64,000 nucleotides of DNA from Minisyncoccota bacterium (GTDB taxonomy: Bacteria > Patescibacteriota > Minisyncoccia > Moranbacterales > UBA1568), in NCBI GenBank assembly GCA_051306005.1, contig JBPPMJ010000003.1, positions 161,764-225,763 on the forward strand. Reading direction: 5' to 3'. Both the position numbers and the translations under genes were made by a program. The stretch's first letter is position 1. Each line of letters opens with the position of its first letter. The notes beneath the pieces were generated by a model. It worked only from the letters and a program-made list of their open reading frames with translations. It did no database searches and had not been told where the DNA came from. Below are positions 25,351 to 44,160 of the stretch, piece by piece.

Positions 25351-25776
25351 ATGGCAAAAGCAATTAAAACAGTTATTAAATTACAAATTCCTGCCACCAA
25401 GGCCAACCCAGCCCCACCAGTTGGTCCGGCACTTGGACAACATGGTTTGAATATCCAGGACTTTTGTAGTAAGTTTAATGAGGCTTCTAAAGATCGTGCA
25501 GGAGATATCGTACCAGTGGACATCACTGTCTATGAGGATCGAACTTTTGATTTTATTTTGAAAACATCGCCAGCTTCAGATTTATTGAAAAAAGCGGCTA
25601 ATGTTGAGAAGGGTTCATCCAATCCATTGAAAGAAAAGAAGGGTACCGTCACGATGGCGCAAGTGCGTGATATCGCGGAAAAGAAAATGGTTGATTTGAA
25701 CGCAAACGATGTTGAGTCAGCGATAAAGATTATTTTGGGTAGTGCGAGGTCAATGGGTATTCACGTGACACAATAA
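25351..25776 (+). CDS. rplK: 50S ribosomal protein L11
   Basis: '[35 protein letters not shown]' is the canonical L11 N-terminus. Start is placed at the internal ATG. Confidence 0.95.
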
Positions 25777-25833
25777 CAAGATTATTCTAATGAGTGGGAG
25801 CTGTGAAGCGTTTGCACCACCACAATATACGTT

Positions 25834-26523
25834 ATGAACAAAGGAAAGAATTACCGCAATGTCGCTGAACAATTGGAAGCTGACAAGGAGTACACTGTGG
25901 AGGAAGCAGTTGCTTTTTTACGTGGACATAAAACAGCGAAGTTTGATGAATCTGTCGAAGTACATATGCGTTTGGGCATTAATGCCAAAAAATCAGATGA
26001 GGGAGTGCGCGCCACAGTCATTTTACCGCAGGGTACTGGTCGTTCACAACGTGTTGCTGTTATTACGAGCGTCAAAGAAAAAGAGGCTAAAGATGCTGGA
26101 GCTGAGATTGTGGGCGGTGAGGATCTGATTGGAGAGATAAAAAATGGCATAATCGTACCTGGTCAGGTCTTTGATGTGTTGTTAGCGACACCGGAAATGA
26201 TGCCAAAATTGGCCTTAGTGGCTAAAGTCTTGGGACCCAAAGGAATGATGCCTTCACCAAAGACCGAAACTGTTACCACTAAAATAAAAGAGGCGATTGA
26301 AATGTTGAAAAAAGGTAAAAAAGTGAGCTTTAAAAATGATGATAGTGGAAACATTCATCAGATGATTGGCAAGGTTTCTTTTACCACGGAAGCTTTGGTG
26401 GAAAATTATCGTACATTGCGCGAGGCGGTAGATCGTGCCAAACCAGAAACGATGAAAGGAAGATTAATCAAATCCATCACCATGTGTTCTACCATGGGTC
26501 CAAGCTTGAAGGTGAAACTTTAA
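25834..26523 (+). CDS. rplA: 50S ribosomal protein L1
   Basis: 229 aa. 'KFDESVEVHMRLGIN...ILPQGTG' is typical of L1. Confidence 0.95.
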   Translation: MNKGKNYRNVAEQLEADKEYTVEEAVAFLRGHKTAKFDESVEVHMRLGINAKKSDEGVRATVILPQGTGRSQRVAVITSVKEKEAKDAGAEIVGGEDLIGEIKNGIIVPGQVFDVLLATPEMMPKLALVAKVLGPKGMMPSPKTETVTTKIKEAIEMLKKGKKVSFKNDDSGNIHQMIGKVSFTTEALVENYRTLREAVDRAKPETMKGRLIKSITMCSTMGPSLKVKL

Positions 26524-26527
26524 TTCT

Positions 26528-27112
26528 ATGGTTCTCTCTGATCGTGACATTATCAAAGAAATCAAAGCGAAGGAGATTATATTGAAACCTTTTCATGTCG
26601 ATTATGTGCAACCGGCGAGTGTAGATTTGCATTTAGATCGGCATTTTTTGGTGTTTGATACGACAAAAAACTTTGTTATTGATCCAAAGGTGATGTCCAA
26701 AAATCTCATGAAGCCTATTGTCATTAAAGATAATGAGGCTTTTATCTTGCATCCGCAAGAATTTGCGTTAGGCCTTATTTATGAGGAAACAGGTGTTTCA
26801 GATAAGCTGGTTGGTCGTCTGGAAGGCAAGAGCTCACTCGGACGCCTTGGCTTGATTATTCATACGACTGCCGGTTATTTGGACCCAGGAAATTCTTTGA
26901 AAATGACTCTGGAGCTTTTTAATGCTGGACGTCTTCCGATTAAGTTGTATCACAAGATGCCAATTGGACAAATGGCTTTTGAATATCTTTCTTCTCCTTG
27001 TATAAAACCATACGGTTCTCAGGGATTGAATAGTAAGTATTTTGGGGACAAAAAACCGGAAGCATCAAAAATGCATCTTAATTTTCTAGCAAAAAATCGA
27101 GCAGTGAAATGA
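26528..27112 (+). CDS. dcd: dCTP deaminase (dUTPase-fold)
   Basis: 'MVLSDRDIIKEI...PASVDLHL' N-terminus and 194 aa length, typical of Dcd. It starts 4 nt after the rplA stop. Confidence 0.85.
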   Translation: MVLSDRDIIKEIKAKEIILKPFHVDYVQPASVDLHLDRHFLVFDTTKNFVIDPKVMSKNLMKPIVIKDNEAFILHPQEFALGLIYEETGVSDKLVGRLEGKSSLGRLGLIIHTTAGYLDPGNSLKMTLELFNAGRLPIKLYHKMPIGQMAFEYLSSPCIKPYGSQGLNSKYFGDKKPEASKMHLNFLAKNRAVK

Positions 27113-27221
27113 AATGTTGTAACTGACAACGTTTTCATACATTGATATAATAAAGAAGGTCTTTATTGAATTATCTGCTAGAATATTTCTTTTTAGTAAT
27201 GTTTCAGGGGAGGAATAGATT

Positions 27222-28139
27222 ATGAAACAATACCTTGAACTCTTGCGCCATATTACTGACCATGGAACGATAAAGACCGATCGGACTGGAACCGGTACCA
27301 AGAGCGTCTTTGGGTATCAAATGCGTTTTGATTTAGCGGAAGGATTTCCTCTTTTAACAACAAAAAAAATGTTCGTCCGAGGAATTATCGAAGAATTAAT
27401 CTGGTTCTTGCGAGGTGATTCCAATCTCCGATACTTAGCAGAGCATGATGTGCATATCTGGGATTCTTGGCCCTTCAAGGCTTATTTGGAACGCACTGGA
27501 CAAGCAATACCATCCAGTGATTCTCTGGAATGGAGAAACGGTATGCGCATTTTCTTGGAACAGATAAAAACGAATGATGCCTTTGCTAAAAAATATGGTA
27601 ATTTGGGACCGATTTATGGGTATCAGTGGCGTAGTTGGCCGACGCCTGATGGTCGGTATATCGATCAGATTAGCGATGTTATGAGGCAGATCAAAAGCAC
27701 TCCTGATTCACGGCGGATGATTGTTTCGGCGTGGAATGTTGCGGATATTGATGAGATGGCCAAGGCGGGGTTGCCACCATGCCATTGTCTGTTTCAGTTT
27801 TATGTTGCCGATGACAAACTATCGTGCCAATTGTATCAGCGCAGTTGTGATACGTTTCTCGGTGTTCCATTCAATATTGCTTCGTATGCGTTGTTGACCA
27901 TGATGATGGCACAGGTCTGTGATTTGAAAGTGGGGGAATTCGTGTGGACGGGTGGGGATGTTCATATCTACACTAATCATTTTGAACAAGTAACGCAACA
28001 ACTATCTCGTGCTCCATTTCCATTGCCTACCATGAAGCTTAATCCTACTATTAAAGATATTTTTGCCTTTGAGGTGGGGGATTTTGTGTTGGAAAATTAT
28101 CAGTTTCACGATGCTATCAGAGCCGAAGTAGCCGTTTAA
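27222..28139 (+). CDS. thyA: thymidylate synthase ThyA (long form, 305 aa)
   Basis: '[26 protein letters not shown]' plus the catalytic '[12 protein letters not shown]' cysteine motif. Confidence 0.95.
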
Positions 28140-28158
28140 AAAATAAAGAGATGTGTGT

Positions 28159-28186
28159 CCCGCTTGAGAGAAGCGGGATTTTTTTT
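28159..28186 (+). terminator. intrinsic terminator after thyA
   Basis: Hairpin CCCGCTT-GAGAG-AAGCGGG followed by ATTTTTTTT. Confidence 0.65.
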
Positions 28187-28219
28187 GGAAAAAAAAGAGA
28201 AATAAGGTAAGATAACATT

Positions 28220-28714
28220 ATGAGTACACTACGTATTAGTATGATTGTTGCCATGGCCAGGACTACGCGTGCTCTCGGCCAAGACAATCGATTGTTGTGG
28301 CATATTCCTGAAGATATGCAGTATTTCAAGAAATTGACAACAGGACATGTGGTTATTATGGGTGCCAAAACGTTTGTTTCTCTTGGAAAACCATTACCAA
28401 ATCGTACTAATATTATATTGTCTCACAATTTATTATTCGAAGCGCCTGGGTGCATTGTGGTACATTCGGTAGAAGAAGCATTACATGAGGCGCGACAATA
28501 TGAACAAGATGAGATATTTATTATCGGCGGAGCAAGTGTTTATGCGCAAATACTACCTTTTACTGACCGATTGTATTTGACGCTTGTGGAAGGTGAATAT
28601 GTGGCGGATACTTTTTTTCCCGAATATGAACAAATATTCAACCATACACTGAGTGAGATACGGCAAGAGAATGAAAAGTATGTTTTCACATTTCTCGTTT
28701 TGGAAAGGATATAA
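28220..28714 (+). CDS. folA: dihydrofolate reductase
   Basis: 'ISMIVAMARTTRALGQDNRLLWHIPEDMQYFKKLTTGHVVIMGAKTF' is the canonical DHFR N-terminus. 164 aa. Confidence 0.9.
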   Translation: MSTLRISMIVAMARTTRALGQDNRLLWHIPEDMQYFKKLTTGHVVIMGAKTFVSLGKPLPNRTNIILSHNLLFEAPGCIVVHSVEEALHEARQYEQDEIFIIGGASVYAQILPFTDRLYLTLVEGEYVADTFFPEYEQIFNHTLSEIRQENEKYVFTFLVLERI

Positions 28715-28728
28715 TTTTTTTAGTAAGC

Positions 28729-29307
28729 ATGTTTGAATATATGCAAAAAATCATTGTTGGCTTAACTGGTGAAATCGCTTCTGGAAAGGATACGGCATCA
28801 CGCTATATCGTAGAAAAACATAAGGCGCATTTGGTGCGTTTTTCACAGTCTTTGCGTGATATGCTGGACCGTATGTTTTTGGAACAAAATAGGGAAAATA
28901 TGTCGGCACTATCTCTTCATATACGCCAGGCATTTGGGGAAGATATTTTGTCAAAAGTAGTACTAAAAGAATCAGAGATTAGCGATCGGTCTATGATAAT
29001 CGTGGATGGTATTCGACGTGTATCAGATATCGTGCATTTGAAAGTGCAACATCATTTTTATTTCATCTATGTCGATGCTTCTCAGGAAACCAGATATCAG
29101 CGTTTGATTGGGCGGCGGCAAAACACGGATGATGCTACCAAGACATTGGCTCAATTTAAGCAGGATGCGCTTTTAGAGACAGAGCTGGAAATTGCCACAC
29201 TCAGAGAGCGTGCCGATTTTATTATTAACAATAATGGAACACACGAGGAATTAAAGGTACAAATAGACGAAGTCATTGCACGGATATTGACACAAAATAT
29301 TGATTGA
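28729..29307 (+). CDS. P-loop nucleotide kinase of the dephospho-CoA kinase (CoaE) fold; substrate unknown
   Basis: Walker A 'GLTGEIASGKDT' and C-terminal 'ADFIINNNGTHEELKVQIDEV' mirror the CoaE 'GLTGGIGSGKST ... ADDVIDNSGSLEEL' layout. The gene is embedded between folA and tmk. Confidence 0.6.
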   Translation: MFEYMQKIIVGLTGEIASGKDTASRYIVEKHKAHLVRFSQSLRDMLDRMFLEQNRENMSALSLHIRQAFGEDILSKVVLKESEISDRSMIIVDGIRRVSDIVHLKVQHHFYFIYVDASQETRYQRLIGRRQNTDDATKTLAQFKQDALLETELEIATLRERADFIINNNGTHEELKVQIDEVIARILTQNID

Positions 29308-29326: not shown

Positions 29327-30013
29327 ATGGCAGGAACACTCATTGTGGTGGATGGTACAGACGGATCAGGCAAAGCGACACAGGTACAGCTCTTGGTCGC
29401 GCGCTTACGGCAAGAGGGATATCGGGTGAAAACGCTTGATTTTCCACAGTATGAAAAAAACTTTTTTGGCACTTTTATCGGACAATGTTTGACTGGCGAT
29501 TATGGTAATTTTGCTTCTCTTGATCCACGCATTGCCTCAATACTCTATGCTGTTGACCGTTTTGAATCCAAATCTGTGCTTGAACGATGGTTGCGTTTGG
29601 GGTATGTTGTTATTTTAGATCGTTACGTGAGTTCTAATCAGATTCATCAGGGAGGAAAGCTGAGCAATTCTCAGGAGCGCAAAAAATTTCTTTCTTGGCT
29701 TGATGCGATGGAGTTCGGTGTTTTCGGACTGCCGAGACCAAATATTATCCTGTATCTTGATGTGCCCCTTGCAATGACGAAAAAAATGTTACAAGACAAG
29801 ACGCAAATCAAGAAGAGTGTGTATCTGAAAGGTGACAAAAAGGACGTGGTAGAAAGTGATGACCAGTATCTCGCCAATAGCCGTGCTAGTGCTTTACGTT
29901 TAGTGAAAAAACAAAACAAGTGGCTTCGTATAGATTGTACGAGAAGAGGAGTATTGCTTTCCCGTGAGGTCATTGCGGAAATAATTTGGCAGAAAGTAAA
30001 AAGTATCCTATGA
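29327..30013 (+). CDS. tmk: thymidylate kinase
   Basis: 'LIVVDGTDGSGKATQ' P-loop, the 'DRY' motif and the lid region. 228 aa. Confidence 0.9.
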   Translation: MAGTLIVVDGTDGSGKATQVQLLVARLRQEGYRVKTLDFPQYEKNFFGTFIGQCLTGDYGNFASLDPRIASILYAVDRFESKSVLERWLRLGYVVILDRYVSSNQIHQGGKLSNSQERKKFLSWLDAMEFGVFGLPRPNIILYLDVPLAMTKKMLQDKTQIKKSVYLKGDKKDVVESDDQYLANSRASALRLVKKQNKWLRIDCTRRGVLLSREVIAEIIWQKVKSIL

Positions 30014-30435
30014 ACCTACTAGTGAAGAAAGTGTATCCCGATGCAAAGTTGCCGACGCGCGCGCATGCTGATGATGCCGGTTTGGATGTTTATACGTTGG
30101 AAGAATGTGTGCTGGCACCGATGGAACGTAGGGCTGTGAGTACAGGAATTGCACTTGCTATTCCGAGTGGCTTTGTCGGCCTACTTTGGGATAAATCTGG
30201 TGTCACTCTGAAGGCAGGAGTGAAAACAATGGGGGGTGTGATTGATGCGGGTTATCGTGGTGAAGTAAAGGTTATCATGATAAATTTGTCTAATGAACCG
30301 TACAATATAGAAAAAGGCGCCAAGATAGCGCAACTATTGATTCAAGAAGTTGCCTTATCGAAAATTTGCGAAGTAACCGATTTGGATGATACCATACGAG
30401 GAGAGCAGGGTTTTGGTAGTACTGGTTTATACTGA
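30010..30435 (+). CDS. dut: dUTP diphosphatase (dUTPase)
   Basis: Motifs 'AGLDVY', 'GVIDAGYRGEV' and 'RGEQGFGSTG'. Its ATG overlaps the tmk stop codon as ATGA. Confidence 0.9.
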   Translation: MNLLVKKVYPDAKLPTRAHADDAGLDVYTLEECVLAPMERRAVSTGIALAIPSGFVGLLWDKSGVTLKAGVKTMGGVIDAGYRGEVKVIMINLSNEPYNIEKGAKIAQLLIQEVALSKICEVTDLDDTIRGEQGFGSTGLY

Positions 30436-30441
30436 AATATT

Positions 30442-31926
30442 ATGCAATATCAGGTCACGATCGGCATGGAAGTGCACGCAGAGTTAAAAACTCGATCCAA
30501 AATGTTTTGTGCGTGCAAGAATGGTTTGGGCATGGAAACAGAGCCAAACATGCATATTTGTCCAGTGTGTACGGCGCAACCCGGATCGTTACCGGTACCT
30601 AATCGTCAAGCAATTGAGATGGTTCAACGTGTCGGTTTGGCACTCGGTTGTACACTTCGTCTTTCGTCAAAATTTGATCGCAAGAACTATTTTTATCCAG
30701 ATATTCCCAAGGGGTATCAAATTTCTCAGTATGATGAACCATTTTGCGAGCATGGCGTTTTGAATATAGGGGGACAAAATTTCCGTGTGACACGCATCCA
30801 TTTGGAAGAAGACACCGGTAAATCAATACACCCGACAGGACAAGCCTATACGTTGGTGGATTTTAATCGTGCCGGTGTGCCACTTATGGAGCTGGTAACG
30901 GAACCAGATTTTTCAACCGGTAAGGACGCGCGTTTATTCTGTCAGAAATTACGTCAGATATTACGTTATCTGGATGTTTCCAATGCGGATATGGAAAAAG
31001 GTCAGATGCGTTGCGAAGTGAATATTTCTCTGTATCCCGAAGGGGCTGATCGTTTGTCTGGTACTAAAGTAGAAGTCAAGAATATCAATTCTTTCCGTTC
31101 AGTAGAACGAGCAATTGAATATGAAATTATTCGTCAAACTGGCGTATTGGAGGCAGGCGAACGGGTAGTGCAGGAAACGAGAGGATGGGATGAAGTCAAG
31201 AATATCACTGTTTCCCAACGCAAGAAAGAATCCGCACATGACTACCGTTATTTCCCAGAACCGGATATCCCACCATTTTTGTTTACATCCGAATATGAAG
31301 AGCGTTTGCGAGCTTCTTTACCAGAATTGCCCGATGCCAAATCTACGCGCTTTTTGAGAGAATATGCCTTGTCATCATCTGATGTAGCAATATTGACCGA
31401 GGACCATCTCCTGTCCGCGTATTTTGAGGCAGTAGCGAGTGAGTTAGCGGAAAAATCCGTTGCTCAAGAAATGCGGGCGCCACTTTCTCGGGCCATAAAA
31501 CTGGCAGTAAATTATCTCTTGACCGAACTTCGAAAATATTTGGCAGACAATGGACAACGCATCGGAGATCTTACCATTACACCGGAAAATTATGCAGAAT
31601 TCATCGGCATTGTAGCAGATGAGAAAATTAATTCCAGCGCCGCGCAAACGGTATTGGCTGAAATGTATCAAGGAGGTGACAATGACCCATCTCACATTAT
31701 CGAGCGATTGAACCTATCCCAAGTCAATGATAGTGTGGAACTTGAAAATGTGATTGAAAAAGTCCTTTCTGCTAACGTAAAATCAGTGAGTGATTATCAG
31801 GCTGGTAAGAGTAACGCATTGCAATTTTTGATGGGACAGGTGATGGTAATGACGAAAGGCAAAGCAAATCCGAAAATTGTAATAGAGATACTACACCGGA
31901 AATTGATGCTGAAAAATAAGGATTGA
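30442..31926 (+). CDS. gatB: Asp/Glu-tRNA amidotransferase subunit B
   Basis: 'YQVTIGMEVHAELKTRSKMFCAC' N-terminus, 494 aa, and a C-terminal GatB/YqeY domain. Confidence 0.95.
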   Translation: MQYQVTIGMEVHAELKTRSKMFCACKNGLGMETEPNMHICPVCTAQPGSLPVPNRQAIEMVQRVGLALGCTLRLSSKFDRKNYFYPDIPKGYQISQYDEPFCEHGVLNIGGQNFRVTRIHLEEDTGKSIHPTGQAYTLVDFNRAGVPLMELVTEPDFSTGKDARLFCQKLRQILRYLDVSNADMEKGQMRCEVNISLYPEGADRLSGTKVEVKNINSFRSVERAIEYEIIRQTGVLEAGERVVQETRGWDEVKNITVSQRKKESAHDYRYFPEPDIPPFLFTSEYEERLRASLPELPDAKSTRFLREYALSSSDVAILTEDHLLSAYFEAVASELAEKSVAQEMRAPLSRAIKLAVNYLLTELRKYLADNGQRIGDLTITPENYAEFIGIVADEKINSSAAQTVLAEMYQGGDNDPSHIIERLNLSQVNDSVELENVIEKVLSANVKSVSDYQAGKSNALQFLMGQVMVMTKGKANPKIVIEILHRKLMLKNKD

Positions 31927-31971: not shown

Positions 31972-32886
31972 TTAGAAATTTTGTTTGACAATTTCTAACG
32001 CTTGATTGGTATCGGTTATCCAATGAATATTGACACCCATTTTTTCCCAGCGTTTGATCCATGTAATTTGACGTTTGGCATAGTGTTTGATAGCACGGAG
32101 TAGCTCTGTTTCTAGGGTATCGCGTGAGATTTTTTGTTGCAGGTATTGTGCGCCAAAACGATACTCAAGACCCAACTCCTCCAATCGTTCCCAAGTGACG
32201 CCAATTGTTTGTAGTTGTGCCACCTCTGCAAGCATGCCATCATCGAGTCTTTTAGTGAGACGTTTGGCGATGCGATCCGCGAGAATTGGTTGAGGGGGAT
32301 TGAGTGCTAAAATGAGAACAGATTGATTGATATTTGATGTGTTGTTATGCGCCAATGGTGGTGGAATATGCCCCAAAGCATCTTGTATTTCAAGCGCACG
32401 AATGAGTCGTACTTTGTTGTGTGCATCAATTGTTTGGGCGCGTTTTGCATTGAGAAGGGATAGCCTTTGAAAGAGCTCTGATGTTGAAAGTTGATTGAGT
32501 GTTTCTCGCAGTTTTGGATTAGGTGGTACAGATGGAAAAGCATGTTTTTCGAGGAGTGCCTGTATCCAAAACCCGGTTCCCCCACAGAGGATAGGGACTT
32601 TGTCCCGTGAACGAATGTCTTGTAGGATACGTTGCGCGTCTTGAATAAAGTGAGTGACATTATAGGAGTCATAAGGTTCTATGATACTCAAAAGATGATG
32701 AGGGACAATGGATTGTTCTTCAGGGGTGACCTTTCCTGTGCCGATATCCATGCCACGATAGATTTGTCGACTATCAGCAGAAATGATTTCACCATCGTAA
32801 CGTTGTGCGATGACAAGAGCAAGAGCAGATTTTCCTGATGCCGTCGGCCCGATAATGACGAGTACTTTTCGGTTTTTTGTTAACAT
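31972..32886 (-). CDS. miaA: tRNA dimethylallyltransferase MiaA
   Basis: P-loop 'VIIGPTASGKSALA' and 'DSRQIYRGMDIGTGK'. Start is placed at the internal ATG that gives a canonical N-terminus. Confidence 0.9.
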   Translation of the reverse strand: MLTKNRKVLVIIGPTASGKSALALVIAQRYDGEIISADSRQIYRGMDIGTGKVTPEEQSIVPHHLLSIIEPYDSYNVTHFIQDAQRILQDIRSRDKVPILCGGTGFWIQALLEKHAFPSVPPNPKLRETLNQLSTSELFQRLSLLNAKRAQTIDAHNKVRLIRALEIQDALGHIPPPLAHNNTSNINQSVLILALNPPQPILADRIAKRLTKRLDDGMLAEVAQLQTIGVTWERLEELGLEYRFGAQYLQQKISRDTLETELLRAIKHYAKRQITWIKRWEKMGVNIHWITDTNQALEIVKQNF

Positions 32887-32917
32887 AATGTAGAAACGTG
32901 AAAGAAGCATTATAAAA

Positions 32918-36400: not shown

Positions 36401-36446
36401 GATTTGTGAGTGTTACAACCTAAATTGCAAATGCCATATTCATCTC

Positions 36447-36479
36447 AAAAATCTAAAAGAAAAACCGCATGAGAAGCGG
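36447..36479 (-). terminator. orphan intrinsic terminator (minus strand) downstream of the decayed gene
   Basis: On the minus strand, the CCGCTTCTCATGCGG hairpin is followed by TTTTTCTTTTAGATTTTT. Confidence 0.5.
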
Positions 36480-36637
36480 AGTTGATGACGTGAGATTTGA
36501 CATAATTATGTGTTCCTTCATAGTTCAGGATATACCGTCGGATTTTGCAGGGAAATTTATGATCTTATTGCTAGTATAGCAGAAAAAAAAGATCCATTCC
36601 ATAACAGTGTCATGGAAGAGAATATGACTGGATCATC

Positions 36638-37140: not shown

Positions 37141-37709
37141 AAAAACCGTTACTGGTATTTGGGCATCAGTAATTTTTTTCAATGACCATCCGCGGATGGG
37201 ACTGATTTTAATAATGCATCAAATTTTGCCTTGCGAGCGATCTCCCGCGCTCTTTTTGGCCCAAAAATGGATTTTGTGGTAGTAAGGAGAGATTTGATAT
37301 GACTATTGCGCGCGTCGGGATATCATCTGATTTGTTGAAAGAACACATATCGAGACAATATCTCGACATTTCATAATACACTCTTTTTACAGAAATTTCA
37401 ATGCATTATAATGTTGGTGAATCCTGAACCCATTGTCTCATCGTCTCTTTTTGGAGTAGGATGGTATCATACGCTTTCTTGCTTCTATGATGTGTATGCG
37501 TCCTGACAGAAAGGAGAAGTTATGAACAAGCACATTCTGGAATACTTGCAAGGAGTCATTTTGATGTTATCCCGGGTGCAGAAGTATACGTCGTAATATG
37601 AAAAATTCAGTAACCGGCTGAAAAAAGCATTTCACTACTTAACGCAGAATGAAGTCTTCGTTACTGTATTAAATAAAGGACATTAAATTTTAGAATTTTT
37701 GCCTGCGTT

Positions 37710-38429
37710 ATGCAAGAAACAACGTTTAAGAAAGAGTTGAGTCTGCTGAATGGAACACCTGTTTTTATTGTGGGCGTGGATGAGGTGGGGCGGGGGCCAT
37801 TGGCAGGACCAGTCGTGGCTACTGCGGCCTGCTATAAAGATGCGGGTTTCCATATTCCAGAAGGACTGGAGAAAGAATTTTCGCTTATCCGTGATTCCAA
37901 GAAACTTTCAGAGAAACAGCGTGAGAGAATATTTGGAATAATTTTGAAATATTTTTACACGGGTATCGGTATTGTTAATGCCGAAACAATTGATCGAGTA
38001 AATATTTTACAGGCGACATTCTTGGCGATGAAAAGCGCTGTCACGACATTGAAAAAACAGATGAAGCAAAACCAAGAGGCATTGACGAATGAGGAATTGT
38101 TACTTCTTGTGGATGGTAATCAAGAAATACCACATTGTTCGTATAGACAGGAATCCGTTGTTGGCGGAGATAGTATTGTGAAGTCTATCGCGGCGGCATC
38201 TATCGTTGCGAAAGTGACTCGAGATCAAATGATGGATGCGTACGACAAGCAATACCCTGGATATGGTTTTGTCCAGCATAAAGGGTATGGAACAGTGATG
38301 CATATGAATGCGTTACGTCGTTTGGGACCATCACCCATTCACCGTCTTTCATTTCGTCCTGTGTTACTTGCTTTACCCGAAAATGTTAATAAACGGTTTG
38401 CGAATGTGCTCCATCCAAAAAAACGTTGA
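37710..38429 (+). CDS. rnhB: ribonuclease HII
   Basis: 'VGVDEVGRGPLAGPVVAAA' with the catalytic DEDD context. 239 aa. Confidence 0.9.
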   Translation: MQETTFKKELSLLNGTPVFIVGVDEVGRGPLAGPVVATAACYKDAGFHIPEGLEKEFSLIRDSKKLSEKQRERIFGIILKYFYTGIGIVNAETIDRVNILQATFLAMKSAVTTLKKQMKQNQEALTNEELLLLVDGNQEIPHCSYRQESVVGGDSIVKSIAAASIVAKVTRDQMMDAYDKQYPGYGFVQHKGYGTVMHMNALRRLGPSPIHRLSFRPVLLALPENVNKRFANVLHPKKR

Positions 38430-38604
38430 TCTAGGTGGTTTCAAACTTCTAACATAACGAGTTGATGAATCACTTCACCCGGTTTTATATAATTTGGCAC
38501 AGCTCTTGGTCTATCATTCAATTGTCGTTGTACTCGTTTTAATTCACGTGACGGAACCTTGTCAGATTCCGTGTCTTAATGAAACGAGTATTTTGTGGCA
38601 TATC

Positions 38605-38633
38605 TTGTCAAAAATGAGATAGGGTGTTAAAGT
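38605..38633 (+). promoter_or_regulatory. sigma70-like promoter TTGTCA-17-TAAAGT upstream of rpmF
   Basis: The hexamers and spacing are read from the sequence, 27 nt upstream of the rpmF ATG. Confidence 0.45.
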
Positions 38634-38659
38634 ATCAATGTTAATAATTTTGTACTGAT

Positions 38660-38869
38660 ATGGCAAATCCAAAGCAAAGACATACGAGGCATCGTCGCGA
38701 TCGGGCGCGCAAACAGTATGATGTAGCCCTGGTTAATACGACTGAATGTCCGCAATGCAAGGCTCAAAAATTAGCACATCGTGTGTGCCCAACGTGTGGT
38801 ATCTACAAGGGTATGCAAATGGTTGATACTGCCCCCAAGCTCAAAAATTCCCAAAAAACCGTCAAATAG
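38660..38869 (+). CDS. rpmF: 50S ribosomal protein L32 (zinc-ribbon form)
   Basis: '[19 protein letters not shown]' N-terminus and a CPQC...CPTCG zinc ribbon. Confidence 0.9.
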
Positions 38870-38922
38870 AAAGGTTGTTCTTATCTATTTCGTCCAAACT
38901 TTTCTTTGCTGAAAAAAACAAA

Positions 38923-39489
38923 ATGGCAAATAGGCATCTTCAAAGATCAATAGCGATGCAATCTCTCTTCGAGTGGGATTTTCATGGTCAGCATGATGAG
39001 CATTCTCGCGCCATGTTGAAGCGCAATATTCGAGAATTTGCACCTGGTCTTGATGATATGGTTTTTGCGAGTCATTTGTTGGAAGGGACTTTACGAGAAC
39101 GTAAGACCATCGATCGCTTGATTGAAAAATGTGCACCAGAATGGCCGTTGGATCAGGTGACGTTGGTGGATCGCAATATTTTGCGTCTTGGTATCTATGA
39201 GTTGATGTTTGGTAGTTATGATGAAGTACCGCCGAAAGTCGCTATTAATGAGGCCATTGAACTTGCGAAAACGTTTGGAAGTGACAGTAGTCCGCGTTTC
39301 GTAAATGGAGTCTTGGGGACGATTTATCGTGAAATGGGGGAACCGATGAAGAACGATATTTCCCAAAATCACCAGCATAATCTTGCGATAACCGCACAAC
39401 ACACAAAAGAGGCTCATGCAATCGTACAACAACGCACGCAACAAAAAATGACGAAAAAAACCGCTGTTTTAAACGAAAAAAATATCTAA
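38923..39489 (+). CDS. nusB: transcription antitermination factor NusB, with an extended basic C-terminal tail
   Basis: '[19 protein letters not shown]' is the NusB N-terminus. About 188 aa, versus about 140 for typical NusB. Confidence 0.8.
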
Positions 39490-39518
39490 ATTACGCATTG
39501 TATCGATATTAAATTTCT

Positions 39519-40208
39519 ATGATTGATATAGATCAACTGCAAATCAAACTTGGGATTACTATTCAAAATCCAGATTTATTTCACGAAGCCCTGACGCACC
39601 GATCATATTTGAATGAACACAAGGGTTATCCCTATTCTCATAACGAACGTCTGGAATTTTTGGGGGATGCGGTATTGGAGTTGATTGTAACTCGTTACCT
39701 TTTTGATCATTTTGATAATCCAGAAGGGGAGTTGACGAATTTTCGTGCTGCTTTGGTTAATGGCGAGATGCTTGGTATTATCGGACGCGAAATCGGGTTA
39801 CAGGATTTCTTATTAATGAGCCGTGGAGAAGCCAAGGATACGGGTCGCGCGCGTGGATACTTGATTGCCAATGCGATGGAATCAGTCATTGGTGCCATTT
39901 ATTTGGATCAAGAATATGATATGGCCCGGGATTTCGTCGAACGCTTTGTGCTGGTACGTCTGGATAGTGTCTTGACACAGGGACTTCATACTGATCCCAA
40001 AAGCCGTTTTCAGGAATTGGCACAGGAAAAAACCGGCATAACTCCAAGTTATCGAGTTTTGAAGGAATGGGGGCCCGACCATGATCGTCACTTTATCGCT
40101 GGCGTTTTTTTGGATGCAGAATTGATTGCCGAAGGTGAAGGGGCAGCGAAACAAGAGGCGCAGCGTGAAGCAGCCAAGCAGGCGCTTCTTAAAAAAGAGT
40201 GGGAATAA
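39519..40208 (+). CDS. rnc: ribonuclease III
   Basis: RNase III signature 'ERLEFLGDAVLEL' plus a C-terminal dsRBD. Confidence 0.95.
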   Translation: MIDIDQLQIKLGITIQNPDLFHEALTHRSYLNEHKGYPYSHNERLEFLGDAVLELIVTRYLFDHFDNPEGELTNFRAALVNGEMLGIIGREIGLQDFLLMSRGEAKDTGRARGYLIANAMESVIGAIYLDQEYDMARDFVERFVLVRLDSVLTQGLHTDPKSRFQELAQEKTGITPSYRVLKEWGPDHDRHFIAGVFLDAELIAEGEGAAKQEAQREAAKQALLKKEWE

Positions 40209-40218
40209 AGGTTTTTCT

Positions 40219-42543
40219 ATGTATCTCAAAAAATTAGAAATCAACGGCTTCAAATCTTTTGCCAATAAAACCACACTGCATTTTTTGCCGGACTGTGACG
40301 TACCTATTCAAGATGATGCTTCAAATGTAGAGGTACCGATTGTGAAATGTGGCATTACAGCGATTGTCGGTCCTAATGGGTCTGGTAAGTCCAATGTGGC
40401 GGATGCTATACGTTGGGCTATCGGCGAACAATCTTTCAAGAATTTGCGAGGTAAAAAATCCGAAGATGTTATTTTTGCTGGCACTGACAAGAGATCGCGT
40501 CTGGGTATGGCCTCTGTAACATTATTTTTTGATAATTCTGATAAACGTATTCCCATCGAATTTGCCGAAGTGTCTGTGACTAGAAAAATTTATCGGAGCG
40601 GAGAAAGTGAATATCTGATTAATGGGGCTCGAGTTCGTTTATTGGATATTGTCGATTTGCTTGCCAGTGCCGGTATTGGTAAAGATAGCTATTGTGTTAT
40701 TACGCAGGGTATGTCTGATGCCGTGCTGAATGCCACTTTGACCGAACGACGGGCTATTTTTGAGGATGCGGCTGGCGTCAAACAATACCAAATTGAGAAA
40801 GAACGCTCACTACGCAAACTGGAAAGCACGCGTACCAATCTCGTACGTGTAGACAGTTTGATAGTCGAGATTGAGCCACATTTGAAAAATTTACGTCGTC
40901 AAGCGGACAAAGCATCGCAGGGCAAGGAGATTGCTGAGAAATTACGTGCCAAACAACTGCTCCTGTATGGTTTTTTGTGGAATACTTTTCAGCGAGAACG
41001 AGGGACGTTGATGGGTGAGTGCGATCGTATCCAGCAAGAAGTATTTGACTTGGAAGTGACAGTCAATACATTGGAGCAAAAGGTAGCGGAATCATCAGCT
41101 GTGATGGAAGATCAGACGAAAGAAGAGGTTTTGCATAAAACACTGATGACAGCGCGTGATACGGCCAATCAATTGTTTCGTAATAGGAGTATTTTGGACG
41201 GAAAAATTGAAATTGAAAAAGCACGTCAAGAGAAGCGTGAAGTGGTGCGTATCATTCCAGTGGATTTGAAATATGTGCGTACGGCATTAGATGAAATTCG
41301 CCAACAACAAAGCTTACTAATTGAACGTCTCAAGAATGTTGAAAATCTTGAAGACATCCAGGATATCAGGGAGTTTTCTCAAGTGATTCAGCAAAAGTTG
41401 TACGATATCTACCAAAAAGCCGGTGAAGGAAGTGTTAAAGAGACACAAATATTGACATTACCTAATGATGAATTGCATCTGAGTAATGAACGCTTGAGGA
41501 GTTTTGTACAAGAAAAAGAAGCATATCAGAAGCAACTGGAAGAAATTCAAACGACGATAATTGAACATGAAAAAGCATTGACAACATTGCGTGAATTGAC
41601 TCGTACTAGCCGTGAAACATTTTTCGCGACGGAAAGGAAATGGCGAGAAACTGGTGCTCGTTTAACGCACCTCAAAGATGTGCTCAATGAATCTAAAGTA
41701 CGTTTGGCGCGCGTGGAAGTACGTGAAGAAGATTTGGTGGCCATAGTACGGGAAGAGCTTGTTTTGGATGTAAAGGATCTTTCGTATGATGGTATTACCC
41801 CAGTAGATAAAGAACAATTAGAACGTGAAATTGCGCGATTGAAGGTGGAAGTAGAGCATATTGGTACGATTGATCCCATGGTGATTGACGAATACCAAGA
41901 AACAGAACAACGCTTTAAATTTTTGACTCGTGAGTCGTTGGATCTCAAACAGGCGATGGAGTCTTTGTCTGTGGTTATAAAAGAAATGGATCAAAAAATA
42001 AATGGTGTTTTTACGGAAGCTTTTCATAAAATCAATGCCCAGTTTTCTGAATATTTCAAGATTATTTTTGGTGGCGGTAAGGCGCAACTTTCTTTGGTGA
42101 AAGTGCGCACGCATCAACAGATAACAGAAGACTTATCCGACCATGAACTATTGAAAATGGAAAAGGAAGAAAAAAACGATATCGGTATCGAGATTATTGC
42201 TTGCCCACCTGGTAAAAAAATAACTAATCTTTCGATGTTATCTGGCGGAGAGCGTTCTCTGACCTCTTTGGCACTTTTATTTGCTATTATTGCACATAAC
42301 CCACCTCCTTTTGCGGTACTGGATGAAGTGGAGGCAGCTCTGGATGAAGCCAACTCTAAACGTTTTAGTGTGATGTTGCGTGAACTTTCATTACACACGC
42401 AATTCGTAGCAATCACGCATAACCGTGAAACAATGGCTCAGGCTGGTTTGTTGTACGGTGTGACGATGGCATCAGATGGAATATCTCAACTTTTGTCCAT
42501 TCGTTTGGATCAGATAGGCAACAACGAAACATTGCTTCATTGA
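40219..42543 (+). CDS. smc: SMC-family chromosome segregation ATPase; unusually short (774 aa) and apparently hinge-poor
   Basis: N-terminal Walker A 'GPNGSGKSNVADAI'. C-terminal ABC signature 'LSGGERSLTSLALLFAI' and D-loop 'FAVLDEVEAALDEAN'. Long coiled-coil middle. Start is taken at the ATG just after the rnc stop. Confidence 0.85.
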   Translation: MYLKKLEINGFKSFANKTTLHFLPDCDVPIQDDASNVEVPIVKCGITAIVGPNGSGKSNVADAIRWAIGEQSFKNLRGKKSEDVIFAGTDKRSRLGMASVTLFFDNSDKRIPIEFAEVSVTRKIYRSGESEYLINGARVRLLDIVDLLASAGIGKDSYCVITQGMSDAVLNATLTERRAIFEDAAGVKQYQIEKERSLRKLESTRTNLVRVDSLIVEIEPHLKNLRRQADKASQGKEIAEKLRAKQLLLYGFLWNTFQRERGTLMGECDRIQQEVFDLEVTVNTLEQKVAESSAVMEDQTKEEVLHKTLMTARDTANQLFRNRSILDGKIEIEKARQEKREVVRIIPVDLKYVRTALDEIRQQQSLLIERLKNVENLEDIQDIREFSQVIQQKLYDIYQKAGEGSVKETQILTLPNDELHLSNERLRSFVQEKEAYQKQLEEIQTTIIEHEKALTTLRELTRTSRETFFATERKWRETGARLTHLKDVLNESKVRLARVEVREEDLVAIVREELVLDVKDLSYDGITPVDKEQLEREIARLKVEVEHIGTIDPMVIDEYQETEQRFKFLTRESLDLKQAMESLSVVIKEMDQKINGVFTEAFHKINAQFSEYFKIIFGGGKAQLSLVKVRTHQQITEDLSDHELLKMEKEEKNDIGIEIIACPPGKKITNLSMLSGGERSLTSLALLFAIIAHNPPPFAVLDEVEAALDEANSKRFSVMLRELSLHTQFVAITHNRETMAQAGLLYGVTMASDGISQLLSIRLDQIGNNETLLH

Positions 42544-42565
42544 TTGATTTAGCATGTTGGGCAGT

Positions 42566-42594
42566 TTGACAGGGTTTCGGGAATAAGGTAGAAT
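42566..42594 (+). promoter_or_regulatory. consensus sigma70 promoter TTGACA-17-TAGAAT upstream of rpsP
   Basis: The hexamers and spacing are read directly from the sequence. Confidence 0.6.
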
Positions 42595-42653
42595 AAAAAA
42601 AGTACTCTTTGAGAGAGGAGTGTTATTATCAGTATTACTGTTTATTTCCGTTT

Positions 42654-42986
42654 ATGTTAGTTATTCGTTTCAATCGTACAGGCAAAAAGAACCATGCGTC
42701 TTTTCGAGTGGTATTGCAGGAGCATACCAAAGCACCCGGTAAACGTCACGTGGAAATTTTGGGAAGCTATGATCCGCACAAAAAAACCACCGTTTTGAAA
42801 AAAGAGCGTATTTTGCACTGGATTTCTCAGGGTGCCCAGTTATCACCAGTAGTGAATAATCTTTTGGTGCGCGAGGGCGTTATTGAGAAAAAGAAAATTA
42901 TCAAAAAAATGCCAAGACCAGTCATCAAAGAAGTGACCGCCGATACGGAGATTGCCGTATCAGATTCTACCGCTGTCTCAGGGTAA
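42654..42986 (+). CDS. rpsP: 30S ribosomal protein S16, with a C-terminal extension
   Basis: 'MLVIRFNRTGKKNHASFRVVL...ILGSYDP' is the S16 core. A Lys-rich tail of about 30 aa is added. Confidence 0.9.
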   Translation: MLVIRFNRTGKKNHASFRVVLQEHTKAPGKRHVEILGSYDPHKKTTVLKKERILHWISQGAQLSPVVNNLLVREGVIEKKKIIKKMPRPVIKEVTADTEIAVSDSTAVSG

Positions 42987-42989
42987 ACA

Positions 42990-43190
42990 CATGTTTGACA
43001 GAAGAGTCCCTTTTTGATACAATGGAAAAAAGTACAATAGAATATCCGTAGATGTGAGGCATTTCCGTACCATTGGGTCGAACGTAGGTCCTCATGAGGA
43101 GAAAAGATAGACGATTATTGTAGAATAATCATCGTTCTATCGTTTGTTTGTCTACGGTATTCTCCGTAGATTTTTTATATCATCATAGCT
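42990..43190 (+). promoter_or_regulatory. rplJ (L10) leader with a terminator/antiterminator-like attenuator
   Basis: At 43151-43176 there is a hairpin TCTACGG-TATTCT-CCGTAGA followed by TTTTTT, just upstream of rplJ. An upstream copy of CCGTAGAT (43046-43053) could pair alternatively. The position matches the autoregulatory L10 leader known in other bacteria. Confidence 0.5.
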
Positions 43191-43715
43191 ATGCAGAATA
43201 GAGAACAAAAAACAGTACTTGTCACGGATGTAACACAAAAAATTCAGAATTCCAAGGCATTGGTATTTGCAAATTTCAAAGGTGTTTCCGTGAAGAGTAT
43301 CACGAGTATTCGTAAGAGTTTGGCAGAGAGTGGTTCAACTTGGCAAGTGTTGAAAAAAACACTGCTCAATATTGCTCTCAAAGAAGCTGGCGTTACTGCT
43401 AATGTCCGTATATTGGACGGACAGATTGGGGTCGCCTTTTCTCAGGATGAAGTCATCGCTGCCAAAGTGTTGTCAGACTTTATCAAGGCTAACAAAGATA
43501 TCCCATTGACAATAGAAGGAGGCACATTGGGCAAAGTTTCTCTTTCTATGCATGAGGTACAGGCTTTGGCGAAATTGCCAAGTCAGGATCAGTTACGGGC
43601 ACAGTTGATTGGCACATTGCAAGCACCAATGAGTAGTTTTGTTCGTGTATTGCAAGGAAATTTGAGCGGATTAGTTCGTGTATTGAAAGCAGTCGAGGAG
43701 AAAAAAGCCATGTAA
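43191..43715 (+). CDS. rplJ: 50S ribosomal protein L10
   Basis: 174 aa, L10-like N-terminus, and position immediately upstream of rplL. Confidence 0.9.
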   Translation: MQNREQKTVLVTDVTQKIQNSKALVFANFKGVSVKSITSIRKSLAESGSTWQVLKKTLLNIALKEAGVTANVRILDGQIGVAFSQDEVIAAKVLSDFIKANKDIPLTIEGGTLGKVSLSMHEVQALAKLPSQDQLRAQLIGTLQAPMSSFVRVLQGNLSGLVRVLKAVEEKKAM

Positions 43716-43755
43716 GAGTGTATTCAAGAAAATAATTTATTGTTGATATAATATT

Positions 43756-44160
43756 ATGTCAGAAGAAAAAAAGGAAGTAATCGTGCCAGAGAAGTTTGAG
43801 AAAATCGTTAGTGATGTTGAGAAAATGAGTGTGTTGGATTTGTCCGAGCTTGTGAAGGTTTTAGAAGAAAAATTCGGTGTTTCTGCTGCTGCTCCCATGA
43901 TGATGGGTGCAATGGCCACAACTCCTATCATAGAAGCTGTTGAGGAAAAGACAGATTTTGATGTAGAGTTGGTTGCTGCCGGAGATCAGAAGATTAATGT
44001 TATTAAAGCGGTACGTGAAATTACCGGTTTGGGCTTGAAGGAGGCAAAAGATTTGGTAGATGCTGCTCCAAAGGTCATCAAAGAAAAGATTGCCAAAGCT
44101 GACGCTGAGGGTTTCAAGAAAAAATTGGAAGAAGCGGGTGCCACTGTGACTTTGAAATAA
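43756..44160 (+). CDS. rplL: 50S ribosomal protein L7/L12
   Basis: '...[24 protein letters not shown]...' with an Ala/Met-rich hinge and the C-terminal '[12 protein letters not shown]' motif. Confidence 0.95.

What the first reader, a model, noticed from the sequence alone, without database searches (positions are those of the whole stretch)
25351..44160. rplKA and rplJL separated by ~17 kb, with a complete dTTP-synthesis block (dcd-thyA-folA-kinase-tmk-dut) inserted right after rplA
Seen: secE-nusG-rplK-rplA is followed 4 nt later by dcd, then thyA (with its own terminator), folA, a CoaE-like kinase, tmk and dut (tmk/dut overlap as ATGA), then gatB. The displaced rpsP-rplJ-rplL lie at 42654-44160 behind a consensus promoter and an L10-leader-like attenuator, and are followed by a terminator rather than rpoBC. 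Established: in most bacteria rplKAJL-rpoBC are contiguous, and the enzymes listed convert dCTP to dUTP to dUMP to dTMP to dTDP with folate recycling. Inference: an unusual co-localisation of the whole thymidylate pathway, apparently co-transcribed with ribosomal protein genes. This suggests growth-rate-coupled control of dTTP supply.
Basis: partly seen in the sequence, partly recalled or inferred. Interest (0 to 1): 0.55.

Follow-up and report, generated by a model that had tools for sequence, protein, structure and literature searches.

The report
Conserved thymidylate gene island beside rplKA
In this tiny-genome (Moranbacteria, candidate phyla radiation) bacterium the genes that make the DNA building block dTTP sit together right after two ribosomal protein genes; the layout is old and shared by the whole lineage, but it is not good evidence that dTTP supply is tied to ribosome production.

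Summary
All the genes are present at the stated coordinates: secE-nusG-rplK-rplA, then dcd 4 nt later, thyA, folA, a kinase, tmk/dut (ATGA overlap) and gatB. rpsP-rplJ-rplL lies 16.7 kb downstream, with its own promoter-like site, a leader and a terminator, and no rpoBC.

The window comes from a Moranbacteria (CPR/Patescibacteria) genome. In 64 of 66 related genomes, thymidylate genes follow rplA. rplJL never does. The island keeps its position, but its parts are swapped in place: thyA-folA for thyX, dcd for dCMP deaminase, dut for MazG. In some relatives tmk and dut are fused. The tightly packed core is folA-kinase-tmk-dut-gatB. The "CoaE-like" kinase is UPF0200-like and resembles phage dNMP kinases. 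It recurs in thymidylate islands of other CPR lineages, some of them not next to rplKA.

Co-transcription with ribosomal genes is plausible only for dcd, and only in this sub-clade. An intrinsic terminator follows rplA in 31 of 54 relatives (about 3 expected by chance). Here thyA also has its own near-consensus promoter and its own terminator. The growth-rate-coupling reading is therefore weak.

Overall this is a new variant of known kinds: a pathway gene cluster and a split r-protein cluster. Interest is moderate.

The parts
24414..24442 (+). Promoter-like site (TTGACA-17-TACACT with TG) upstream of secE. It is the only candidate promoter for secE-nusG-rplK-rplA-dcd.
   Evidence: No other + strand site scoring 9/12 or better lies between 24443 and 27122. 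A perfect TTGACA is conserved at this place in relatives.
24456..24479 (+). Short GC hairpin AAAGCCC-TCG-GGGCTTT plus T-run, just downstream of the promoter-like site, in the secE leader.
   Evidence: The order is promoter then hairpin in 23 of 24 relatives where both were detected.
24494..24679 (+). secE
   Evidence: PF00584, E 2.5e-16
24691..25236 (+). nusG
   Evidence: PF02357 and KOW. The ATG at 24691 was read.
25351..25776 (+). rplK (L11)
   Evidence: PF03946 and PF00298
25834..26523 (+). rplA (L1)
   Evidence: PF00687, E 1e-49
26528..27112 (+). dcd (dCTP deaminase), 4 nt after the rplA stop codon
   Evidence: TIGR02274, 174.6 bits; sequence
27123..27151 (+). Near-consensus promoter-like site (CTGACA-17-TGnTATAAT, 11/12) in front of thyA
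27222..28139 (+). thyA (thymidylate synthase)
   Evidence: TIGR03284, 457 bits
28157..28187 (+). Intrinsic-terminator-like hairpin (9 pairs) plus T8 after thyA
   Evidence: Also present in some close relatives: L002, L003, L011.
28220..28714 (+). folA (dihydrofolate reductase)
   Evidence: PF00186, E 2e-52
28741..29307 (+). P-loop kinase, UPF0200-like and phage dNMP-kinase-like. Its substrate is not established.
   Evidence: PDB 3lw7/3h0k, E 4e-13. phrog_139 'deoxynucleoside monophosphate kinase', E 3e-20. The start is taken from the 100%-identical database protein P0001.
29327..30013 (+). tmk (dTMP kinase)
   Evidence: PF02223, 69 bits; NF005923, E 2e-35
30010..30435 (+). dut (dUTPase). Its start overlaps the tmk stop as ATGA.
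   Evidence: TIGR00576, 144.6 bits; sequence. The -4 overlap is the median in 25 relatives.
30442..31926 (+). gatB, 6 nt after dut. It is the conserved 3' gene of the packed core.
   Evidence: PF02934 and PF02637. The dut-gatB gap has a median of 15 nt in 34 loci.
31972..36400 (-). miaA and dnaE on the opposite strand. They are part of the conserved array between the two r-protein units.
37710..42543 (+). rnhB, rpmF, nusB, rnc and an SMC-like gene, upstream of rpsP
   Evidence: The same order is seen in L084-L087.
42566..42594 (+). Promoter-like site (TTGACA-17-TAGAAT) before rpsP
42654..42986 (+). rpsP (S16)
   Evidence: TIGR00002, 67.6 bits
42995..43023 (+). Promoter-like site (TTGACA-17-TGnTACAAT) before rplJ
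   Evidence: A TTGAC site is conserved in relatives.
43024..43190 (+). rplJ leader. A long-range helix (GAAUAU.CCGUAGAU with GUCUACGG.UAUUC) encloses two hairpins. It competes with the terminator hairpin GUCUACGG-UAUUCU-CCGUAGAU plus U-run (43150-43176).
   Evidence: z = -3.1. It is conserved, with compensatory changes, in L081-L087.
43191..43715 (+). rplJ (L10)
   Evidence: PF00466
43756..44160 (+). rplL (L7/L12)
   Evidence: PF00542 and PF16320
44224..44264 (+). Intrinsic-terminator-like hairpin (12 + 2 pairs) plus U7 after rplL

Best explanation
The window comes from a Moranbacteria genome (CPR/Patescibacteria; NCBI labels it 'Minisyncoccota').

In this lineage the ancestral secE-nusG-rplKAJL cluster was broken at its natural operon boundary, between rplA and rplJ. 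The rplJL unit kept its own promoter and autoregulatory-type leader, and now sits behind rpsP.

Downstream of rplA lies an old thymidylate ('dTTP') island. It holds a fixed position, but its parts have been replaced in place:
- a dC-nucleotide deaminase (dcd or dCMP deaminase),
- a thymidylate synthase (thyA plus folA, or thyX),
- one or two UPF0200/gp1-like kinases,
- tmk,
- a dUTPase (dut or MazG),
- and always gatB at the 3' end.

Inferred pathway: dCTP to dUTP (Dcd), to dUMP (Dut), to dTMP (ThyA, with FolA recycling dihydrofolate), to dTDP (Tmk). The extra kinase probably phosphorylates a deoxynucleoside monophosphate that feeds or drains this route.

Inferred transcription units in this genome, from sequence only:
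- [P24414 - secE-nusG-rplK-rplA-dcd]
- [P27123 - thyA - T28157]
- [folA-kinase-tmk-dut-gatB], a tightly packed unit probably fed by read-through of the thyA terminator.

The contact between rplA and dcd is a derived compaction in one sub-clade. It is not a conserved regulatory design.
For: Organism. The RplA relatives L001-L080 are Moranbacteria MAGs at 58-79% identity. The kinase is 100% identical to an NCBI 'Minisyncoccota' MAG protein.

Synteny. The order ligA-gatCA-orf176-secE-nusG-rplKA-island-gatB-miaA(-)-dnaE(-) recurs across the 80 loci. 64 of 66 loci with at least 3 kb downstream of rplA carry island genes within 5 kb, and none carries rplJ or rplL. The order dnaE(-)-rnhB-rpmF-nusB-rnc-smc-rpsP-rplJL is conserved in L084-L087, and no rpoB follows rplL. 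More distant genomes (RplA 41-43% identical; L088, L089) keep the canonical rplKAJL order.

Replacement in place:
- thyX (PF02511) takes the place of thyA-folA between dcd and the kinase.
- L095 has a DNMK-like kinase, dCMP deaminase, the kinase, ThyX, Tmk, MazG and gatB after rplA.
- L090 has dCMP deaminase, DCD, ThyA, DHFR, the kinase and gatB.
- L099 and L102 have a Tmk::Dut fusion.
- Falkowbacteria L104 has ThyX-kinase-Tmk-Dut-gatB.

Transcript punctuation. The gaps folA-kin-tmk-dut-gatB have medians of 13, 10, -4 and 15 nt, with no promoter-like or terminator-like sites. The rplA-dcd gap has a median of 98 nt, and 31 of 54 loci have a terminator there, against 2.65 in shuffles: 3 of 23 in close relatives and 28 of 32 in distant ones.

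Window signals. There is no compositional anomaly across the block.
Against: - No expression data exist. All promoters and terminators are consensus matches or folded hairpins.
- No convincing promoter was found for folA-gatB in the window, so that unit's start is inferred.
- The kinase's substrate is unknown. Its nearest solved relative (Sulfolobus UPF0200) sits in an RNA-processing neighbourhood, not a thymidylate one.
- Functionally unrelated neighbours (ligA, gatCA, miaA, dnaE) are conserved in order just as well. Part of the conservation may therefore simply reflect slow rearrangement.
- ndk, cmk, a ribonucleotide reductase and thyX could not be looked for outside the 64-kb window.
Confidence: 0.7

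Rival explanations
1. The whole dTTP block is co-transcribed with rplKA, so dTTP supply tracks ribosome synthesis and growth rate.
For: In this window dcd starts 4 nt after rplA. There is no terminator between them, and no + strand promoter-like site between 24443 and 27122. The genes from secE to gatB all lie on one strand.
Against: - thyA has its own 11/12 promoter-like site and a strong terminator.
- 31 of 54 relatives have a terminator right after rplA, including 28 of 32 of the more distant ones. The tight junction is therefore derived, not the conserved state.
- The same island exists away from rplKA in L099 and L102.
Confidence: 0.12
2. Frozen accident. The genes are neighbours only because streamlined CPR genomes rearrange slowly. 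The island is not a selected functional unit.
For: Unrelated flanking genes (ligA, gatCA, miaA, dnaE, rnhB ... rplL) are conserved in order over about 25 kb just as well. gatB, which has no known link to dTTP, is always attached.
Against: - Analogous enzymes replace each other at the same slot: thyA-folA for thyX, dcd for dCMP deaminase, dut for MazG.
- tmk and dut are fused in some lineages.
- The kinase/thymidylate-synthase/tmk/dUTPase set recurs in different chromosomal contexts and in a lineage with a 600-aa DCD (L103).
- The core genes overlap or lie 10-15 nt apart.
Confidence: 0.15
3. A recently inserted mobile or phage-derived nucleotide-metabolism cassette split rplKAJL in this genome.
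For: All the island proteins tested have phage counterparts (PHROG hits for the kinase, dcd and tmk). Transfer of thyA into Patescibacteria has been reported (PMC12455944). Relatives carry two divergent dcd/thyA types (40% and 48% identity).
Against: - GC content and skew are uniform across the block.
- No integrase, tRNA or flanking repeat is present. The only tRNA is at 899-986.
- The arrangement is shared by relatives down to 48% RplA identity, so it is ancient.
- rplJL lies 16.7 kb away, behind housekeeping genes that are themselves conserved in order.
Confidence: 0.03

Closest known systems
The canonical secE-nusG-rplKAJL-rpoBC cluster of bacteria, and its known exceptions
   Same: secE-nusG-rplK-rplA are contiguous, and rplJ-rplL are contiguous. 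The break falls at the boundary between the L11 and L10 operons known from E. coli. Genes separating rplKA from rplJL have been reported in Bradyrhizobium diazoefficiens and Actinomyces israelii (bioRxiv 10.1101/2025.04.14.645983).
   Different: Here 16.7 kb and 16 genes intervene. rplJL sits behind rpsP and is followed by a terminator, with no rpoBC within 20 kb. The split is fixed across a whole candidate phylum-level lineage.
thyA-folA (thymidylate synthase and DHFR) operons, and the complementary distribution of thyA/folA versus thyX
   Same: thyA is immediately followed by folA. In relatives where thyX is present, both thyA and folA are missing from the slot. This matches the established rule that ThyX needs no DHFR (my own knowledge: Myllykallio et al. 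2002).
   Different: The replacement happens at one fixed chromosomal slot, inside a larger island that also holds dcd or dCMP deaminase, a kinase, tmk and a dUTPase.
Nucleotide-metabolism gene clusters of large phages (T4 frd-td, gene 1 dNMP kinase, dCTPase/dUTPase)
   Same: The enzyme repertoire is the same, and the kinase's best profile match is a phage dNMP kinase family (phrog_139, E 3e-20).
   Different: This is a chromosomal housekeeping locus in a cellular genome, conserved across species. It has no phage structural or integration genes and no compositional signature.
L10 leader (Rfam RF00557) and the B. subtilis rplJL transcription attenuator
   Same: It lies between a promoter and rplJ. 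It carries a terminator hairpin with a competing long-range helix. It is conserved in relatives, with compensatory changes.
   Different: There is no match to the Rfam model even at E<=10. Binding of L10(L12)4 is untested.
UPF0200 family (Sulfolobus SSO1041, PDB 3h0k/3lw7) and T4 gp1 dNMP kinase
   Same: A full-length alignment to SSO1041 (E 4e-13). The P-loop motif GxxxxGK is present, and three arginines and the AD..N motif are invariant.
   Different: The archaeal UPF0200 gene sits among RNA-processing genes. The Pfam DNMK score is 23.9, below the 27.1 cutoff. T4 gp1 aligns only over the P-loop region.

Membership tests
Canonical rplKAJL-rpoBC cluster | rplK-rplA adjacent, downstream of secE-nusG | tested here: met
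Canonical rplKAJL-rpoBC cluster | rplJ immediately follows rplA | tested here: not met
   rplJ starts 16.7 kb downstream. It is absent within 10 kb of rplA in all 80 relatives.
Canonical rplKAJL-rpoBC cluster | rpoB-rpoC follow rplL | tested here: not met
   A terminator, then an antiporter and uvrA, follow rplL. In relatives a membrane protein follows.
L10 leader (Rfam RF00557) | Match to the family's covariance model | tested here: not met
   No hit at E<=10 in 42500-44400, and none at the gathering threshold
L10 leader (Rfam RF00557) | Structured 5' leader of rplJ with a terminator and a competing structure | tested here: met
   Conserved in 7 sequences, with 3 compensatory pairs.
L10 leader (Rfam RF00557) | Binds the L10(L12)4 complex | not testable with these tools
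   Needs binding assays
dCTP deaminase (Dcd) | Score above the NCBIfam equivalog cutoff | tested here: met
   TIGR02274, 174.6 against 92.8
Thymidylate synthase ThyA and DHFR | Scores above the curated cutoffs | tested here: met
   TIGR03284, 457 against 108. PF00186, 177 against 25.
dTMP kinase (Tmk) | Score above the curated cutoffs | tested here: inconclusive
   Pfam PF02223, 69.4 against 27, is met. NCBIfam TIGR00041, 73.0 against 83.25, and NF005923, 122 against 193, are below cutoff.
dUTPase (Dut) | Score above the curated cutoff | tested here: met
   TIGR00576, 144.6 against 102.55
   TIGR00152, 40.4 against 65.55. The Pfam CoaE match covers only residues 8-76, the P-loop region.
Phage-type dNMP kinase (Pfam DNMK / phrog_139) | Profile match over the full length | tested here: inconclusive
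   phrog_139, E 3e-20, over residues 1-185. Pfam DNMK scores 23.9, below 27.1. T4 gp1 (PDB 1dek) aligns only over about 40 residues.
Phage-type dNMP kinase (Pfam DNMK / phrog_139) | Phosphorylates dNMPs | not testable with these tools
   Needs an enzyme assay. Gene context in 7 island architectures supports a role in deoxynucleotide metabolism.
UPF0200 | Full-length sequence similarity to SSO1041 | tested here: met
   E 4e-13, residues 10-187 against 3-177

The most novel reading that the evidence does not exclude
The UPF0200/gp1-like kinase is an obligatory and so far unrecognised step of a self-contained module that turns salvaged nucleotides into dTTP in CPR bacteria. It might be a broad dNMP kinase or a dCMP kinase that replaces a missing Cmk or Ndk step and acts on dNMPs from imported DNA. 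The module's parts are exchanged as cassettes among CPR lineages, and possibly with small archaea. In the sub-clade that contains this window, its first gene (dcd) has additionally come under the control of the secE-nusG-rplKA transcript and that transcript's promoter-proximal hairpin.
Probability: 0.3. Interest if true: 0.55.

Novelty: new variant of a known kind. Interest (0 to 1): 0.4.

Why it matters
CPR bacteria lack most nucleotide biosynthesis, so the few steps they keep define what they must take from hosts or from the environment. This locus matters for three reasons:

- A position-fixed island in which analogous enzymes replace each other is a clean natural experiment showing that the pathway, not any particular gene, is under selection.
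- It gives a concrete, testable function for an orphan kinase family that so far has only structural-genomics structures.
- It cautions against reading regulatory coupling from a single genome's gene junctions. The 4-nt rplA-dcd junction is an outlier within its own lineage.

Tried and rejected
- The exact-sequence look-up of the kinase from the upstream ATG (192 aa) found nothing. The database protein starts at the second Met.
- Rfam found only tRNA-Ser at gathering thresholds. A permissive search of 42500-44400 gave no L10_leader hit. The weak PyrR hit (27 bits against 54) is simply the rplL terminator.
- Literature searches for Moranbacteria plus thymidylate, and for UPF0200, returned nothing.
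- I tested whether archaeal UPF0200 genes share the thymidylate context. They do not: Sulfolobus has a CCA-adding enzyme, LigT and an RNA-binding protein nearby. An archaeal contig with a 48%-identical kinase has it alone.
- A profile search of the PDB could not separate CoaE, adenylate kinase and gp1 as the nearest characterised relatives. I therefore did not run a structure prediction, which would not settle the substrate.
- I looked for a ribonucleotide reductase, thyX and ndk in the window and found none.
- The 1.3-kb ORF-poor gap at 36401-37709 has no Rfam match, and apart from one short weak match (118 bp, 72% identity, in L027) it is not conserved in relatives.
- The recent mobile-insertion idea is rejected on composition and conservation.

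Full report
**1. Check of the observation**

- secE 24494-24679
- nusG 24691-25236
- rplK 25351-25776
- rplA 25834-26523
- dcd 26528-27112
- thyA 27222-28139
- folA 28220-28714
- a P-loop kinase, 28741-29307
- tmk 29327-30013
- dut 30010-30435
- gatB 30442-31926
- miaA and dnaE on the minus strand
- rnhB, rpmF, nusB, rnc and an SMC-like gene
- rpsP 42654-42986, rplJ 43191-43715, rplL 43756-44160

The sequence shows the 4-nt gap between rplA and dcd and the ATGA overlap of tmk and dut. The consensus scan finds several signals:
- a 9-pair hairpin plus T8 after thyA (28157-28187);
- near-consensus promoter-like sites before rpsP (42566-42594) and rplJ (42995-43023);
- a terminator-like hairpin just before rplJ (43150-43171).

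A strong hairpin plus U7 follows rplL (44224-44264). The next genes are an NhaP-type antiporter and uvrA, not rpoBC.

An 11/12 promoter-like site with an extended -10 (CTGACA-17-TGnTATAAT, 27123-27151) lies between dcd and thyA. All four 11/12 matches in the 20-kb scan lie in intergenic regions upstream of genes. The scan therefore seems informative in this genome, even though the total number of matches equals the number expected from shuffles.

**2. Organism and conservation**

A scan of one genome per species with RplA returned 80 loci at 58-79% identity. Most are titled Candidatus Moranbacteria or Moraniibacteriota. Many others carry the evidently wrong title 'uncultured Bdellovibrionales'. 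The kinase is 100% identical to a protein of an NCBI 'Minisyncoccota' MAG, on a 494-kb contig.

I ran tblastn of the window's proteins against these loci. The order ligA-gatC-gatA-orf176-secE-nusG-rplK-rplA-dcd-thyA-folA-kinase-tmk-dut-gatB-miaA(-)-dnaE(-) is the rule. Of the 66 loci with at least 3 kb downstream of rplA, 64 carry island genes within 5 kb, and none carries rplJ or rplL.

Metagenome loci found with RplJ show the other half of the array, dnaE(-)-rnhB-rpmF-nusB-rnc-smc-rpsP-rplJ-rplL. A membrane protein follows it, never rpoB. Two distant loci (RplA 41-43% identical) keep the canonical secE-nusG-rplKAJL order.

The split is therefore an old, fixed feature of the lineage. It falls at the boundary between the L11 and L10 operons known from E. 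coli. Genes separating rplKA from rplJL have been noted in a few other bacteria (bioRxiv 10.1101/2025.04.14.645983).

**3. The island keeps its place but changes its parts**

- In several relatives, a roughly 430-aa ThyX (PF02511) occupies the slot of thyA-folA between dcd and the kinase.
- Another group has a CYTH-domain gene after rplA, followed by a divergent dcd (40% identical) and thyA (48%).
- Following more distant kinase homologues to their contigs gave further architectures:
  - rplA-Band7-dCMP deaminase-DCD-ThyA-DHFR-kinase-gatB (L090);
  - rplA-DNMK-like kinase-dCMP deaminase-kinase-ThyX-Tmk-MazG-gatB (L095);
  - dCMP deaminase-ThyX-kinase-Tmk::Dut fusion-gatB-miaA(-), not next to rplKA (L099 and L102);
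  - ThyX-kinase-Tmk-Dut-gatB in a Falkowbacteria MAG (L104);
  - DNMK-like kinase, a 600-aa DCD, ThyX, Tmk and Dut (L103).

Analogous enzymes thus replace each other at the same slot, and two of the genes are fused in some lineages. This argues that the cluster is kept together by selection on the pathway, not only by slow rearrangement. It also shows that the link to gatB is older and wider than the link to rplKA.

**4. Transcription units**

I measured intergenic distances in the relatives. I also scanned them for promoter-like sites scoring at least 10/12, and for hairpins (at most -7 kcal/mol) abutting a T-run.

The core folA-kinase-tmk-dut-gatB is tightly packed. Median gaps are 13, 10, -4 and 15 nt, with no promoter-like or terminator-like sites.

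The rplA-dcd gap has a median of 98 nt, and the window's 4 nt is the minimum. 31 of 54 loci have a terminator-like element there, against a mean of 2.65 (maximum 5) in shuffled sequences. The split is 3 of 23 among the closer relatives and 28 of 32 among the more distant ones. The likely ancestral state is therefore termination after rplA. The sub-clade that contains this window lost the terminator and compacted the junction.

Terminators after dcd (12 of 45 loci) and after thyA (13 of 50) come and go.

In the window, the only candidate promoter for dcd is the one upstream of secE (24414-24442). thyA has its own promoter-like site and its own terminator. No convincing promoter precedes folA; the best candidate scores 8/12 by eye. 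The folA-gatB unit probably depends on read-through of the thyA terminator. All of this is inference from sequence.

**5. The kinase**

- Pfam gives only generic P-loop families, a CoaE match limited to the P-loop region, and a sub-threshold DNMK match.
- The only solved relatives by sequence are Sulfolobus SSO1041 (UPF0200) structures, at E 4e-13.
- The best phage family is phrog_139, 'deoxynucleoside monophosphate kinase', at E 3e-20 over the full length.
- A profile search of the PDB cannot rank CoaE, adenylate kinase and T4 gp1.
- The Sulfolobus gene sits among RNA-processing genes, so the archaeal branch gives no support.
- Within CPR, the kinase is embedded in seven different thymidylate island architectures.

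I conclude, by inference, that it acts on a deoxynucleotide of this pathway, for example as a dCMP kinase or a broad dNMP kinase. It is not a dephospho-CoA kinase.

**6. The rplJ leader**

The roughly 165-nt leader is conserved in seven related sequences. The elements, in order, are:
- a TTGAC promoter-like site;
- UCCGUAGAU;
- a helix UGAGG/CCUCA enclosing a variable hairpin;
- CGAGGAA;
- a second hairpin;
- the terminator UCUACGG...CCGUAGA plus a U-run.

The minimum-free-energy fold pairs the upstream CCGUAGAU with the 5' arm of the terminator (z = -3.1). That pairing competes with the terminator hairpin, as in a classical attenuator. Three pairs show compensatory changes, and by eye L087 changes both partners of the long-range helix. 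The leader does not match Rfam L10_leader. It works like an L10-type attenuator, but it cannot be filed as a member of that family.

**7. Verdict**

The co-localisation is real, conserved and probably selected. The coupling to ribosomal protein transcription applies at most to dcd, in one sub-clade. It is contradicted as a general design by the terminators in relatives and by islands that lie away from rplKA.

I found no description of this island in the searchable literature. The general phenomena are known: pathway clustering, non-orthologous displacement of thyA/folA by thyX, and split r-protein clusters. I rate it a new variant of known kinds, of moderate interest. The most useful lead is the testable function it suggests for the kinase.

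Noticed in passing
window 24414-24479; also the orf176-secE spacers of L005-L074: A perfect TTGACA-17-TAxxxT promoter-like site is followed, about 10-12 nt after the -10 element, by a short hairpin AAAGCCC-TCG-GGGCTTT plus a T-run. The order is promoter then hairpin in 23 of 24 relatives where both were detected. This is a possible promoter-proximal attenuator of the secE-nusG-rplKA unit. B. subtilis NusA is autoregulated by termination in its own leader (PMC12288461).
   Followed up: partly
window 22055-23827 (gatC, gatA) and 30442-31926 (gatB): gatCA and gatB, usually one operon, are separated by orf176, secE-nusG-rplKA and the thymidylate island. gatB is the 3' neighbour of the island in every CPR architecture seen, including those away from rplKA (L099, L102, L104). 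No functional reason is apparent.
   Followed up: partly
L099 10557-11846; L102 10557-11864: A single 429-435-aa protein combines the thymidylate kinase and dUTPase domains, that is, a Tmk::Dut fusion.
   Followed up: no
L013 13239-14165: A reverse transcriptase gene (RVT_1), plus other ORFs, is inserted between dcd and thyA in one relative.
   Followed up: no
L010 10741-11433, L019 10862-11563 and similar loci: A CYTH-domain gene lies between rplA and a divergent dcd/thyA pair (40% and 48% identical to the window's). In several of these loci (for example L010, L019 and L027-L030) no tmk or dut is detected between the kinase and gatB, so their Dcd might form dUMP directly.
   Followed up: partly
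L101 10001-10561: A contig with archaeal markers (MCM, prefoldin, an S-layer domain) carries a kinase 48% identical to the window's, closer than many CPR homologues. This hints at transfer between domains.
   Followed up: no
window 36401-37709: A 1.3-kb stretch between the divergently transcribed dnaE and rnhB has no ORF longer than 79 aa and no Rfam match at E<=1. Apart from one short weak match (118 bp, 72% identity, in L027) it is not conserved in relatives.
   Followed up: yes
window 40126-42543: The SMC-like protein is only about 790-805 aa. Both halves of the SMC_N head are present, but there is no hinge-domain Pfam hit. Its ORF overlaps the end of rnc. Its length is conserved in relatives.
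   Followed up: no
window 1101-1835, 4555-11794, 17284-19866, 50377-57547: There are two separate type IV pilus gene sets (PilM/N/O, PilB/T, PilC, pilins, prepilin peptidase) and a ComF-like gene. These fit DNA uptake as a source of deoxynucleotides.
   Followed up: no
L001, L008-L011 and many other loci: Records titled 'uncultured Bdellovibrionales bacterium' have RplA 60-79% identical to the window and the same gene order as Moranbacteria MAGs. The titles look like misclassifications.
   Followed up: no
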